IMG/VR virus record: IMGVR_UViG_3300048080_000333
Reading direction: 5' to 3' (one strand)
DNA length: 22,499 nucleotides
From: a virus
Shown here one piece after another: positions 1 to 1,592 of the stretch. The notes under the pieces are model-generated. The model was not told where the DNA came from and did not search any database. It saw only the letters and a program-made list of their open reading frames with translations. The stretch's first letter is position 1, and every line of letters starts with the position of its first letter. The translations under genes were made by a program, and so were the position numbers.

Positions 1-55
1 ATACACAGAACACCGAAGGTACCCTGCCTCTCCCCAGGATATGCACCCTGACTAG

Positions 56-516
56 TGGGAAGATACCTTCCCTCTAACGATCAGGAGCCCCAAAGTTACA
101 GTAAAACTGATGAAAACCTCCTTAGAGATGACTTTCAGATGACTGGGAACCTCCCGCGATCTTCCGCGGGGTACTCCCTTTTCCAGAGCGTAGCCATTGG
201 GATCCCCGAGGCCGTTCCTGTTCCTCCCGAACCCGATCCGACTCGTGGCACCACTCTACCAAGGGCTGGGATGATCCCTGGGATCGGGTGGGACACGTCC
301 CAGTGACCTCTTGGTACCGTCTCGAAGTCGCAGAGATAGCCTGCGACAAGCCGCTGGGACAACCCTGGTATTGAGTGGGATCGTCGTAGCAGCGAGTTAT
401 AGGGCTGGGATACCCTTAGAGAACCTAGAGTATCCCACCTCACCCAAAGGGAGAGGGGTCCTCGAACAGCCCCTCTCTATCTCCCTCCAAAAATTGTCCC
501 GACTCGGTTCGTCCCA
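56..516. repeat. Cluster of 12 TGGGA/TCCCA pentamers (iteron-like)
   Basis: TGGGA at 56, 144, 198, 267, 279, 289, 355, 376, 406; TCCCA at 298, 433, 512; AGGGCTGGGAT twice (262, 401); no credible CDS here. Confidence 0.6.
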
Positions 517-532
517 GACCCCCAACGGGGTC

Positions 533-561
533 TTGACAAGCCACCTCGAAGCATCTACGAT
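533..561 (+). promoter_or_regulatory. sigma70-type promoter, probably leaderless
   Basis: TTGACA(533-538)-N17-TACGAT(556-561); ATG 569 falls at the expected +1. Confidence 0.8.
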
Positions 562-568
562 AGGAGGC

Positions 569-1102
569 ATGGACCAGGTGCTTCAGCAACAGTTGCTCGG
601 GGATGCAAGGGCAACCGACCTCTACTCGCTTCCCCTACCCAGTGTCAACTGGGCCAAAGCGGTCGTCGACGAGATCGTGGCTCGGTTCCGGCCAGACCTC
701 GATGTGGTAGTCAGATACACTCCCCGGCGCCCGGCCGGCACGGCCAAGTCCCTTCGGTGTCGCGGCCTGGCAGGGTACCTGTTGGTCGGGCACCACATCC
801 CGTTCCGCGGCGGGTGCCGAATCAACCTTTACTCGGGTGGTCGCGATGTCGGGACGCTCGCCCACGAACTCGCGCATGCCGTGTCGAACAGAGACCACGG
901 GTATGCCTTCAAGTTGGCCCATTCGCAAATACTCGATCTTCTCGAACAGTTGCCAGAGGTTGCCAAAGGCAACGAGGCAACGGGTTGCCTTTTGGCAACG
1001 CGGGGGTGCGAAGGTTCGATGCTGTCCAAAACCCCCTCGTGGGATGGTTCAGCAGACACGGGTTCGAGTCCCGTCACCTCCACCACCCCGGATCGGGCTT
1101 GA
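569..1102 (+). CDS. Zincin-like metalloprotease (SprT/WLM-like HExxH)
   Basis: TLAHELAH...HGYAF motif; start moved from 311 to ATG 569 on promoter position; last ~50 codons overlap repeats and an RNA gene. Confidence 0.7.
   Translation: MDQVLQQQLLGDARATDLYSLPLPSVNWAKAVVDEIVARFRPDLDVVVRYTPRRPAGTAKSLRCRGLAGYLLVGHHIPFRGGCRINLYSGGRDVGTLAHELAHAVSNRDHGYAFKLAHSQILDLLEQLPEVAKGNEATGCLLATRGCEGSMLSKTPSWDGSADTGSSPVTSTTPDRA
949..999. repeat. Six GTTGCC/GGCAAC half-sites forming nested inverted repeats
   Basis: GTTGCC at 949, 959, 984; GGCAAC at 968, 976, 994. Confidence 0.8.
1002..1085 (+). ncRNA. ssrA-like: Miniature tmRNA: tRNA-like domain only, no tag reading frame
   Basis: Acceptor GGGGGTG/CACCTCC with G3.U70, A73 and CCA; stemless D-loop CGAAGGTTCGA; P2 TGCTG/CAGCA followed by GAC; T-arm ACGGG-TTCGAGT-CCCGT; only 25 nt inside P2. 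Confidence 0.85.
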
Positions 1103-1128
1103 CAAACCGTGGACTCGTGAGGTAAACT
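1099..1128 (+). promoter_or_regulatory. sigma70-type promoter
   Basis: TTGACA(1099-1104)-N18-TAAACT(1123-1128). Confidence 0.7.
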
Positions 1129-1170
1129 ACTCGTAAGAATAGCCTGATTCCGTTGAAGAGGGAGTAGACC

Positions 1171-1365
1171 ATGGACCGTGAGAACTTGCTGACCCAACTG
1201 ATGCAAGACAGTCTTACAGACGCCGCGTCGGTTGCTCGGCACGAATGGGGTGCCCGGGCCGACCAGACCGCAGTAGTCATTCTCGCCGCGGCTCTCTTCT
1301 CCGAACGGGCTCGGGTAGGCACGGAGGCCCTCGAACGCGCCGTGTTCGGTCGAAAGGCTACCTGA
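1171..1365 (+). CDS. Hypothetical protein, 64 aa
   Basis: SD GAGGGAG; helical-looking sequence; TGATG coupling to next ORF. Confidence 0.7.
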   Translation: MDRENLLTQLMQDSLTDAASVARHEWGARADQTAVVILAAALFSERARVGTEALERAVFGRKAT

Positions 1366-1592
1366 TGGGCGCGCAACGCTGTTCGCGTCCATCCCGCCCC
1401 CGGCACGACCGCTGCGCCGGTTTCGGATGTCGCCGCCAACTGCCCAAACTGGCCCTGCGGTACCAGGACCGTTTTTGCTCGACTCGGTGCGCCCGAATCG
1501 CCTATGGCACCTGGCGCCCTATCGGAATGAAGGGGATCCCTGAGCGGTCGAGCCTATTCTTGTCTTTGTTGAGTTGCGGAGGCGAGCCATGA
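1365..1592 (+). CDS. Small Cys4 zinc-finger protein, 75 aa
   Basis: CAGFGC...RFCSTRC (treble-clef/TRASH-like); TGATG and ATGA overlaps at the two ends. Confidence 0.65.
   Translation: MGAQRCSRPSRPRHDRCAGFGCRRQLPKLALRYQDRFCSTRCARIAYGTWRPIGMKGIPERSSLFLSLLSCGGEP

What the first reader, a model, noticed from the sequence alone, without database searches (positions are those of the whole stretch)
569..1102. Mini-tmRNA nested in the protease ORF: maturation would leave a non-stop mRNA
Seen: the HExxH ORF has no stop until TGA 1100-1102, which lies inside the next -35 box. It therefore reads through the repeat cassette and the whole TLD on the same strand, and its last ~50 aa look non-globular. Inference: RNase P cleavage at 1002 would leave a stop-less protease mRNA, the natural substrate of tmRNA-SmpB. 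Protease level would then depend on trans-translation status, which the co-produced TLD could alter. This parallels the established arfA/brfA non-stop regulatory logic.
Basis: partly seen in the sequence, partly recalled or inferred. Interest (0 to 1): 0.72.

Follow-up and report, generated by a model that had tools for sequence, protein, structure and literature searches.

The report
Phage mini-tmRNA inserted inside a gene
An uncultured phage carries a tiny, tag-less version of the ribosome-rescue RNA (tmRNA) inserted into the last codons of a small metalloprotease-like gene; the overlap is real, but it looks like a by-product of the insertion and not an evolved control circuit.

Summary
ORF 569-1102 has no in-frame stop until TGA 1100-1102, which lies inside the next TTGACA box. 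It reads through a hairpin cassette (949-1001) and an 84-nt tRNA-like-domain-only tmRNA (1002-1085; Rfam 54.1 bits, cut-off 47).

The regulatory reading is not supported.
- All five aligned homologues lose similarity at residue about 127.
- The only related locus I could fetch (L009) ends the gene at the same stop in the same -35 box, with no TLD. A second homologue's tail also implies no TLD.
- So hairpins plus TLD form a 147-nt (49-codon) in-frame block absent from relatives.
- The 50-codon tail has no coding periodicity and no relative in 5.8 billion proteins.
- All three forward frames are stop-free here. A 49-codon open stretch has P about 0.38 in this window.

TLD-only phage tmRNA (mycobacteriophage DS6A) and non-stop mRNAs from CDS/t(m)RNA overlap (Carsonella smpB) are both in print. 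Elsewhere, 55 of 79 phage mini-tmRNA contexts have the upstream ORF stop before the RNA, no different from tRNA controls (p 0.22).

If RNase P cuts at 1001/1002, a stop-less mRNA does follow; this is untested.

In passing: 66 distinct mini-tmRNAs in IMG/VR, none found in 185,579 genomes.

The parts
533..561 (+). Promoter-like site P1 (TTGACA, 17 nt, TACGAT). Its -10 ends 7 nt before ATG 569, so the mRNA is probably leaderless.
   Evidence: 10 of 12 consensus matches. The same layout is seen in L009. The leaderless start is inferred from spacing only.
569..1102 (+). Full ORF of 177 codons plus the stop TGA 1100-1102.
   Evidence: The start is shared with P0001 and P0002.
569..949 (+). Conserved part of the ORF: a small zincin-like HExxH...H domain (residues 1-127).
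   Evidence: H99, E100, H103 and H110 are invariant in 6 of 6 aligned sequences. The profile weakly matches astacin/BMP1 (E 0.008-0.03) and Spartan SprT (E 0.1) in the PDB. Pfam SprT-like and eCIS_core score below cut-off. GC by codon position is 0.70/0.43/0.74.
947..1093 (+). 147-nt (49-codon) in-frame block that is absent from the syntenic relative L009.
   Evidence: Comparison and the alignment. L009 goes from the CTCGAA codons straight to CGGGCTTGACA.
949..1001 (+). Hairpin cassette: three GTTGCC and three GGCAAC units that can form two or three stem-loops, ending at the predicted RNase P site.
   Evidence: -28.5 kcal/mol, z -4.2. These motifs cluster nowhere else in the window. No T-run terminator follows on the + strand.
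1002..1085 (+). TLD-only mini-tmRNA. It has a 7-bp acceptor stem with G3:U70, a GG-UU-CGA D-loop analogue, helix P2, a small inner hairpin, a T arm and an encoded ACCA end. It has no tag frame and no pseudoknots.
   Evidence: Rfam RF00023 scores 54.1 bits (cut-off 47), E 3.4e-20, with 292 model positions replaced by 6 nt. It fits a covarying set of 47 such RNAs. ARAGORN reports no tmRNA.
1086..1098 (+). 3' trailer holding a 4-bp mini-hairpin (CCCG-GAT-CGGG, 1087-1097), with no T-run.
   Evidence: Read directly. No terminator-like site is reported here.
1099..1128 (+). Promoter-like site P2 (TTGACA, 18 nt, TAAACT). Its -35 box holds the ORF's stop TGA 1100-1102.
   Evidence: The same GGCTTGACA box with an in-frame TGA ends the gene in L009.

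Best explanation
The window is part of an uncultured tailed phage. It carries a terminase, a head protein and an array of more than 30 tRNA genes. Near its left end lies a small, probably leaderless, zincin-like gene whose stop codon sits inside the -35 box of the next promoter, so there is no intergenic space.

In this lineage a 147-nt block sits two codons before that stop. The block is a hairpin cassette plus an 84-nt tRNA-like-domain-only tmRNA of the kind known from mycobacteriophage DS6A. The block has no stop codon in any frame and is a multiple of three. The ORF therefore reads through it to the old stop and gains a 50-residue tail with no sign of selection.

The nesting is most likely a by-product of inserting an RNA gene where no spare DNA was available.

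Inferred steps, not shown:
- The TLD is made from the P1 transcript by RNase P at 1001/1002 plus 3' trimming.
- It is charged with alanine and binds SmpB.
- As reported for a TLD-like molecule in E. coli, it interferes with or replaces host trans-translation without tagging.
- As a side effect, processed transcripts become stop-less protease mRNAs ending after codon 144.
For: TLD identity:
- Rfam gives 54.1 bits against a cut-off of 47.
- In an alignment of 47 TLD-only RNAs that includes the window, 96.2% of cells pair. With slid partners the figure is 46-55%. All 6 P2 pairs, which were not part of my search pattern, show two-sided changes.

The block is lineage-specific:
- L009 is syntenic from the contig start through P1, the gene and the GGCTTGACA box. 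It has no tmRNA match at E 0.01.
- The tail of P0002 matches the L009 promoter and 5'UTR in shifted frames.
- Together that is 0 of 2 close homologues with a TLD.

Domain end and tail:
- In 5 of 5 aligned homologues similarity ends at residue about 127.
- Tail GC by codon position is 0.54/0.68/0.64, against 0.70/0.43/0.74 in the domain.
- No protein of 97-310 aa resembles the tail.

Chance:
- All three frames are open here, and P(49 open codons) is 0.38.

Other phage mini-tmRNAs:
- The DS6A TLD starts 10 nt after the gp33 stop.
- In 55 of 79 IMG/VR contexts the upstream ORF of at least 60 codons stops before the TLD. In 12 the stop touches or lies inside it, in 3 the ORF spans it, and 9 have none.
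- Among first-of-array tRNAs in the same loci the counts are 37, 3, 2 and 7 of 49. Fisher p is 0.22.

Literature (passages seen):
- DS6A is listed as 'TLD only', and a similar molecule strongly inhibits tmRNA (PMC4131195, PMC11915505).
Against: - Only one related locus and two close homologues exist, so polarity (insertion here or deletion in the relatives) is not resolved.
- The block is exactly in frame (a 1 in 3 chance) and stop-free in all three frames (4.8% of 147-nt windows). Only 7 of 89 other mini-tmRNAs are stop-free in all three frames. Mild selection for translatability cannot be excluded.
- Several other phages have real-looking upstream ORFs whose stop lies at or inside the TLD 5' end. 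Examples are a conserved 71-codon ORF in L023 and L042 (90 codons as called in L067), and a TAG sharing G1 in L061, L094, L096 and L099. Overlap is therefore recurrent, if not enriched.
- There are no expression data of any kind.
Confidence: 0.7

Rival explanations
1. Evolved non-stop control. RNase P release of the TLD turns the protease mRNA into a stop-less message. Host tmRNA-SmpB then tags and destroys the product. As the co-produced TLD titrates SmpB, tagging falls and a truncated 144-residue protease accumulates. Protease level would thus report trans-translation status, as for arfA.
For: - The geometry allows it. The stop is 3' of the TLD, and there is no promoter-like or terminator-like site on the + strand between the gene and the TLD.
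- A stable hairpin sits right at the would-be 3' end.
- The block is in frame and free of stops in all three frames.
- A published precedent exists for the idea: Carsonella smpB/ssrA overlap, and 379 same-orientation CDS/t(m)RNA overlaps, 23 of them spanning (PMC4131195 passages).
- Some other phage TLDs are overlapped by upstream ORFs.
Against: - The arrangement is absent in 2 of 2 close homologues.
- The tail has no coding signature and no relatives.
- An open frame is expected by chance, P 0.38.
- Overlap is no more frequent for TLDs than for tRNAs in the same contigs, 15 of 79 against 5 of 49, p 0.22.
- The CDS has no known link to ribosome rescue.
Confidence: 0.15
2. The TLD is an inactive relic (a decayed phage tmRNA or a recombination scar) that is never processed. 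The gene simply makes a 177-residue protein with a harmless disordered tail.
For: - ARAGORN does not call it.
- Its D-loop analogue is one base shorter than in the other 45 IMG/VR members and DS6A, except L111.
- The MFE z-score of the RNA alone is only -1.0.
- Six IMG/VR phages with the identical 31-nt 3' end carry full-length tmRNAs of 397-410 nt.
Against: - Every hallmark is intact: the 7-bp acceptor stem, G3:U70, the T arm and the encoded ACCA. It scores above the Rfam cut-off.
- It has the same P2, AAAA and inner-hairpin layout as the covarying 76-89-nt class.
- The full-length RNAs differ from it through the D-loop and P2 region, so it is not a simple internal deletion of them.
Confidence: 0.08
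3. The polarity is reversed. The nested cassette is ancestral and the relatives lost it by a clean deletion, so the nesting could be an old, tolerated or useful state.
For: - The junctions are clean and in frame, and the same stop is used in both forms.
- With only three lineages, parsimony cannot decide.
Against: - More distant homologues (P0003, P0005) also end within 2-5 residues of the domain end.
- The tail lacks coding periodicity.
Confidence: 0.07

Closest known systems
TLD-only (CDS-less) tmRNA of mycobacteriophage DS6A (Mao et al. 2009, known here only through citing passages; Hudson, Lau and Williams 2014, PMC4131195; PMC11915505)
   Same: - Size: about 83-84 nt.
- Acceptor stem with G3:U70, D-loop analogue, short P2 and T arm, with no tag frame.
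- Phage-borne, and co-oriented directly behind a protein gene.
   Different: - The DS6A RNA starts 10 nt after the stop of gp33. Here the CDS spans the whole RNA.
- DS6A scores below the Rfam cut-off (43.2 bits) and ends in CTA, not CCA.
- There is no sequence kinship beyond the shared tmRNA core.
Carsonella smpB/ssrA overlap and other CDS/t(m)RNA overlaps predicted to give non-stop mRNAs (PMC4131195, passages seen)
   Same: A same-strand CDS runs into or across a t(m)RNA gene, so RNA maturation should remove the stop codon. The extension beyond the conserved domain is an apparently random sequence.
   Different: - In Carsonella the CDS is smpB itself, which gives a feedback loop, and the tmRNA is full length.
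- Here the CDS is an unrelated zincin-like gene, the RNA is TLD-only, and the setting is a phage.
- The authors found CDS overlap with ssrA nowhere else but Carsonella.
arfA non-stop regulation in E. coli (abstract of PMC10107115 seen in a search listing; RNase III site cited in PMC4131195; brfA is recalled only)
   Same: Proposed logic only: an mRNA cut inside the CDS, with the product's fate set by trans-translation.
   Different: - arfA's arrangement is conserved, its product is a rescue factor, and the cut is made by RNase III at a hairpin.
- None of these is shown here, and conservation was tested and not met.
Jakobid mitochondrial and Mallomonadaceae plastid tmRNAs without an mRNA-like region (Jacob et al. 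2004 seen as a reference entry; PMC11915505 passage)
   Same: A tmRNA reduced to its tRNA-like domain.
   Different: Those are organellar, vertically inherited and partnered with an imported SmpB. This one is on a phage.

Membership tests
tmRNA, TLD-only form (DS6A type) | Score at or above the Rfam RF00023 gathering score, with both model ends matched | tested here: met
   54.1 bits against 47, model positions 1-374, E 3.4e-20. The match also passes in the whole-window gathering run.
tmRNA, TLD-only form (DS6A type) | 7-bp acceptor stem with G3:U70, and an encoded ACCA end | tested here: met
   Read. G3:U70 is present in 47 of 47 aligned TLD-only RNAs, including the window.
tmRNA, TLD-only form (DS6A type) | D-loop analogue GGnUUCGA, and a T arm with a GGUUCRAnUCC loop region | tested here: met
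   The T arm is canonical. The D-loop analogue is GG-UU-CGA, one base shorter than the usual form.
tmRNA, TLD-only form (DS6A type) | Helix P2 closes directly over a short insert, with no pseudoknots and no tag reading frame | tested here: met
   292 model positions are replaced by 6 nt. P2 pairs 21-25 with 55-59 form in the window row. Across the class, 6 of 6 P2 pairs covary and 96.5% of cells pair. ARAGORN finds no tag.
tmRNA, TLD-only form (DS6A type) | Alanylation by AlaRS, SmpB binding, and an effect on trans-translation | not testable with these tools
   This needs biochemistry. The only data are those cited for a TLD-like molecule in E. coli (PMC4131195 passage).
Non-stop-regulated genes (arfA type) | The in-CDS cleavage arrangement is conserved among homologues | tested here: not met
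   0 of 2 close homologues carry the TLD. In 5 of 5 aligned homologues similarity ends at residue about 127.
Non-stop-regulated genes (arfA type) | The transcript is really cleaved upstream of the stop, and the product is controlled by tmRNA-SmpB | not testable with these tools
   No RNA or protein data exist. Only the geometry is known.
CDS spanning a t(m)RNA gene (the class counted by Hudson et al. 2014) | A real, homologue-supported CDS on the same strand, with its stop beyond the RNA gene | tested here: met
   ORF 569-1102 spans 1002-1085. The CDS is supported by P0001 and P0002 at 65% identity.
Zincin metallopeptidases (astacin/SprT-like) | HExxH plus a third zinc ligand, and a family-level profile match | tested here: inconclusive
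   H99, E100, H103 and H110 are invariant in 6 of 6 sequences. Pfam SprT-like (14.8 bits against 25.6) and eCIS_core (15 against 22) are below cut-off. PDB profile hits to astacin have E 0.008.

The most novel reading that the evidence does not exclude
The nesting is a working timer. Each TLD released from the early P1 transcript leaves one stop-less protease mRNA, capped by a hairpin. While host tmRNA-SmpB is active, the protease is tagged and destroyed. Once the accumulating phage TLD has soaked up SmpB, an untagged truncated protease appears. Protease activity would thus switch on only after host ribosome rescue has been disabled.

More broadly, the many phage mini-tmRNAs that abut or overlap an upstream stop codon would couple gene expression to trans-translation in the same way.
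Probability: 0.12. Interest if true: 0.7.

Novelty: new member of a known kind. Interest (0 to 1): 0.35.

Why it matters
If the nesting were functional, it would be the first case of a phage wiring a gene's output to the host's ribosome-rescue system through its own tmRNA mimic.

The evidence points the other way. Both ingredients are already described: a TLD-only phage tmRNA, and non-stop mRNAs from CDS/t(m)RNA overlap. The combination here is confined to one lineage and shows no sign of selection.

The more useful result is a by-product. Tag-less mini-tmRNAs are common in uncultured phages: 66 distinct sequences in IMG/VR with one strict pattern. They are structurally conserved, ARAGORN does not call them, and the same type of pattern found none in 185,579 cellular genomes. 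Their role is unknown. It could be blocking host trans-translation or tag-free rescue, and it is open to simple experiments.

Tried and rejected
Searches for relatives
- DNA relatives among cultured phages: none for window 300-1400. The protease domain by tblastn found none. For the TLD, 70 records matched but only over the T-arm and 3' end, and 0 covered at least 80%.
- Protease relatives in IMG/VR: 296 pattern matches, 0 confirmed.
- Protease relatives in JGI/ENA metagenome contigs: 422 pattern matches, 1 locus, L009.
- The contig of P0002 could not be fetched. Its lack of a TLD is inferred from the protein tail only.

Host inference
- The window's 28-nt TLD 3' end has 0 matches in genome contigs. 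No whole genome is held for this window.

Pattern caveat
- The patterns require three bases between GG and CGA. The window has two, so these scans could not have found close copies of the window's own TLD.
- The variant pattern was run only on viral contigs. It gave 1 hit, L111, which is unrelated and has its upstream CDS ending about 100 nt before the RNA.
- The zero in cellular genomes therefore holds for the common form only.

Rows left out
- Of the 6 proteins, P0004 (352 aa) and P0007 (1112 aa) were left out of alignment A2. They match only short pieces of the query (residues 14-55 and 80-109).
- In one search, contexts with less than 400 nt upstream, and duplicates of the RNA plus its 300 upstream bases, were dropped. 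tRNAs with another tRNA within 250 nt upstream were also dropped.
- ORFs there are mechanical calls of at least 60 codons, not gene predictions. Contexts are not phylogenetically independent.

Ideas rejected
- An internal promoter for the TLD: no -10-like hexamer lies at the right distance from the TTGCCA-like units, and one search lists none.
- The cassette as an intrinsic terminator: no T-run on the + strand.
- A bare attP fragment: both ends of the TLD are present in normal order.
- Origin by internal deletion of the full-length phage tmRNAs that share its 3' end: the D-loop and P2 regions differ.

Pfam on nine ORFs that overlap other TLDs gave only one weak CHC2 zinc-finger hit.

Literature
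- Searches found no paper in the held library on widespread TLD-only tmRNAs in phages beyond DS6A, and none on a CDS spanning one.
- 'mini-tmRNA' gave 0 papers.
- Mao et al. 2009 is not held.
- I did not ask for supplementary tables. Those of PMC11915505 and PMC9004378 may list more phage tmRNA forms.

Full report
WHAT IS THERE

The window carries a terminase large subunit and a head protein, and ARAGORN tRNA genes. Rfam finds 33 tRNA matches plus one tmRNA match at gathering scores. It is therefore part of a tailed phage. No whole genome is held for it.

At 1002-1085 on the + strand, Rfam's tmRNA model scores 54.1 bits (cut-off 47, E 3.4e-20). Both model ends match, and 292 central positions are replaced by 6 nt. 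This is a tRNA-like domain (TLD) without pseudoknots or a tag frame. ARAGORN reports no tmRNA.

The frame opened at ATG 569 has no stop until TGA 1100-1102. That TGA lies in the TTGACA box of promoter-like site 1099-1128. The gene's own promoter-like site is at 533-561. Between the conserved coding part and the TLD lie three GTTGCC and three GGCAAC units (949-1001). They fold into stable hairpins (-28.5 kcal/mol, z -4.2).

THE GENE

Two close homologues exist among 5.8 billion clustered proteins: P0001 (128 aa) and P0002 (149 aa), both at 65% identity. An exhaustive search of 1.84 billion representatives added four weak ones. I aligned three of them and left out two long proteins that match only short pieces.

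H99, E100, H103 and H110 are invariant in 6 of 6 sequences. The profile weakly matches astacin/BMP1 and Spartan SprT in the PDB. Pfam SprT-like and eCIS_core stay below cut-off. The protein is best called a small zincin-like protein; peptidase activity is inferred. In every aligned homologue similarity ends at query residue about 127.

THE RELATIVE WITHOUT THE TLD

The only locus recovered by the metagenome scan is L009, a 2,289-bp groundwater contig encoding P0001. It starts with nearly the same bases as the window. It has the same P1, gene and GGCTTGACA box. Its gene ends with Arg-Ala-stop, with the TGA in the -35 box, exactly as in the window. It has no tmRNA match at E 0.01.

Relative to L009, the window holds an extra 147 nt (947-1093): hairpins, TLD and eight trailer bases. 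That is 49 codons, in frame.

The 22-residue tail of P0002 matches the L009 promoter and 5'UTR read in shifted frames. That phage too goes from the domain straight into the promoter. So 0 of 2 close homologues have the TLD.

IS THE READ-THROUGH MORE THAN CHANCE?

No.
- All three forward frames are free of stops from 837 to 1099.
- 38% of 49-codon stretches on this strand are open in a given phase.
- 4.8% of 147-nt windows are open in all three frames.
- GC by codon position is 0.70/0.43/0.74 in the domain but 0.54/0.68/0.64 in the tail.
- The tail is 58% G/S/T/P/A.
- No protein of 97-310 aa resembles the tail.

Because the stop sits inside the next promoter, any RNA gene added downstream of the domain but upstream of P2 had to land inside the ORF.

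THE TLD IS A REAL MEMBER OF A CLASS

A strict pattern for short TLDs found 99 stretches in IMG/VR, which are 66 distinct sequences of 62-89 nt, all with G3:U70. Two of them were scored by Rfam at 63-72 bits.

I aligned the window, DS6A and the 45 distinct sequences of 76-89 nt, one of which (L111) came. In that alignment 96.2% of cells pair in the acceptor, P2 and T helices, against 46-55% with slid partners. All six P2 pairs, which were not in the pattern, show two-sided changes. Parts of the acceptor and T stems were fixed by my pattern, so only P2 and the variable stem positions are independent evidence. The window shares the layout of P2, an A-rich stretch and an inner hairpin.

The same type of pattern found nothing in one genome for each of 185,579 species. 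That pattern cannot match the window's one-base-shorter D-loop. The variant pattern found one unrelated viral hit.

Six IMG/VR contigs share the window's last 31 nt but carry full-length tmRNAs of 397-410 nt. Their D-loop and P2 regions differ.

IS NESTING TYPICAL OF PHAGE MINI-tmRNAs?

No.
- The DS6A TLD (28478-28560, 43.2 bits) begins 10 nt after the gp33 stop.
- Of 79 distinct IMG/VR contexts with at least 400 nt upstream, a same-strand ORF of at least 60 codons stops before the TLD in 55. Its stop touches or lies inside the TLD in 12, it spans the TLD in 3, and 9 have no such ORF.
- For 49 first-of-array tRNAs in the same loci the counts are 37, 3, 2 and 7. Overlap is 15 of 79 against 5 of 49, p 0.22.
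- Some overlaps look real in AT-rich contigs. A conserved 71-codon ORF ends 33 nt into the TLD in L023 and L042; in L067 the same ORF is called at 90 codons from an upstream GTG. A TAG shares the TLD's G1 in L061, L094, L096 and L099. Only one of nine such ORFs had even a weak Pfam hit.

MECHANISM

Shown: the anatomy, the class membership of the RNA, and the absence of the cassette in relatives.

Inferred:
- The TLD is co-transcribed from P1, since no promoter-like or terminator-like site lies between on the + strand.
- RNase P cuts at 1001/1002.
- The upstream fragment then ends one base into codon 145 with a hairpin at its 3' end and is a non-stop mRNA.

The released TLD may act like the TLD-like molecule reported to inhibit tmRNA strongly in E. 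coli, perhaps by titrating SmpB (PMC4131195 and PMC11915505, passages seen; the primary paper is not held).

The non-stop consequence is plausible. Nothing indicates that it was selected.

WHAT IS KNOWN

These are in print:
- TLD-only tmRNAs in phage DS6A, jakobid mitochondria and some plastids.
- Non-stop mRNAs arising from CDS overlap with t(m)RNA genes, including Carsonella smpB/ssrA, with 23 spanning cases among 115,660 t(m)RNA genes.

My searches found no report of a CDS spanning a TLD-only tmRNA. They also found no report that such RNAs are common in uncultured phages. Supplements were not consulted.

VERDICT

This is a new member of a known kind. Interest is modest for the nesting and higher for the class-level by-product.

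Noticed in passing
IMG/VR loci L007, L008, L014-L111 (for example L008:296-377, L025:321-402): One strict pattern finds 99 stretches, which are 66 distinct TLD-only mini-tmRNAs of 62-89 nt, all with G3:U70. They fall into size classes of about 66-68 nt and about 78-83 nt. P2 covaries. ARAGORN called none in the two loci I tested. The same type of pattern has 0 hits in 185,579 representative genomes. The papers I could search report only DS6A.
   Followed up: partly
L067:9075-9344(-), L023:54-266(+), L042:5867-6079(-); L099, L094, L061, L096: In AT-rich phage contigs, a conserved 71-codon ORF (called at 90 codons from an upstream GTG in L067) ends 33 nt inside the mini-tmRNA. In another group a 66-130-codon ORF with a weak CHC2 zinc-finger hit ends in a TAG whose G is the RNA's first base. 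RNase P cleavage would remove the stop in these cases too.
   Followed up: partly
window 1-20 and L009 1-25; window about 200-420 and L009 about 250-420: The window and the related contig begin with nearly the same bases, which may mark a physical genome end. Both then carry several TGGGAC/TGGGAT-type repeats upstream of P1. This was seen by eye.
   Followed up: no
window 556-571; L009 559-574: The -10 hexamer of P1 ends only 7 nt before the ATG of the zincin-like gene in both phages. The mRNA is probably leaderless, a trait common in Actinobacteria (the latter recalled, not tested).
   Followed up: no
L010 1581-1870 (- strand), just upstream of the mini-tmRNA of L007/L010: A GC-rich stretch of about 280 nt ends in a second T-arm-like and CCA-like element (GGTTCAATTCC ... 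CACCA) only 4 nt before the mini-tmRNA. No Rfam family matches at E 0.1. It may be an undescribed structured RNA.
   Followed up: partly
L001-L006: Six IMG/VR contigs carry full-length phage tmRNAs (397-410 nt) with the same 31-nt 3' end as the window's TLD. In 4 of the 6 a GOLLD RNA lies about 2 kb away, and tRNA genes are present in 3 of those 4 loci.
   Followed up: no
Alignment A3, columns 5-6 with 81-82: 11 of the 47 TLD-only RNAs (those beginning GGGGTGG and ending CACCTCCACCA) have two non-pairing positions in the middle of the acceptor stem. This could be a register shift or a distinct subclass.
   Followed up: no
L009 1024-1190: The relative has an extra small ORF between P2 and the homologue of window gene 1171-1365. 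This early region is therefore variable in gene content. The ORF was not searched.
   Followed up: no
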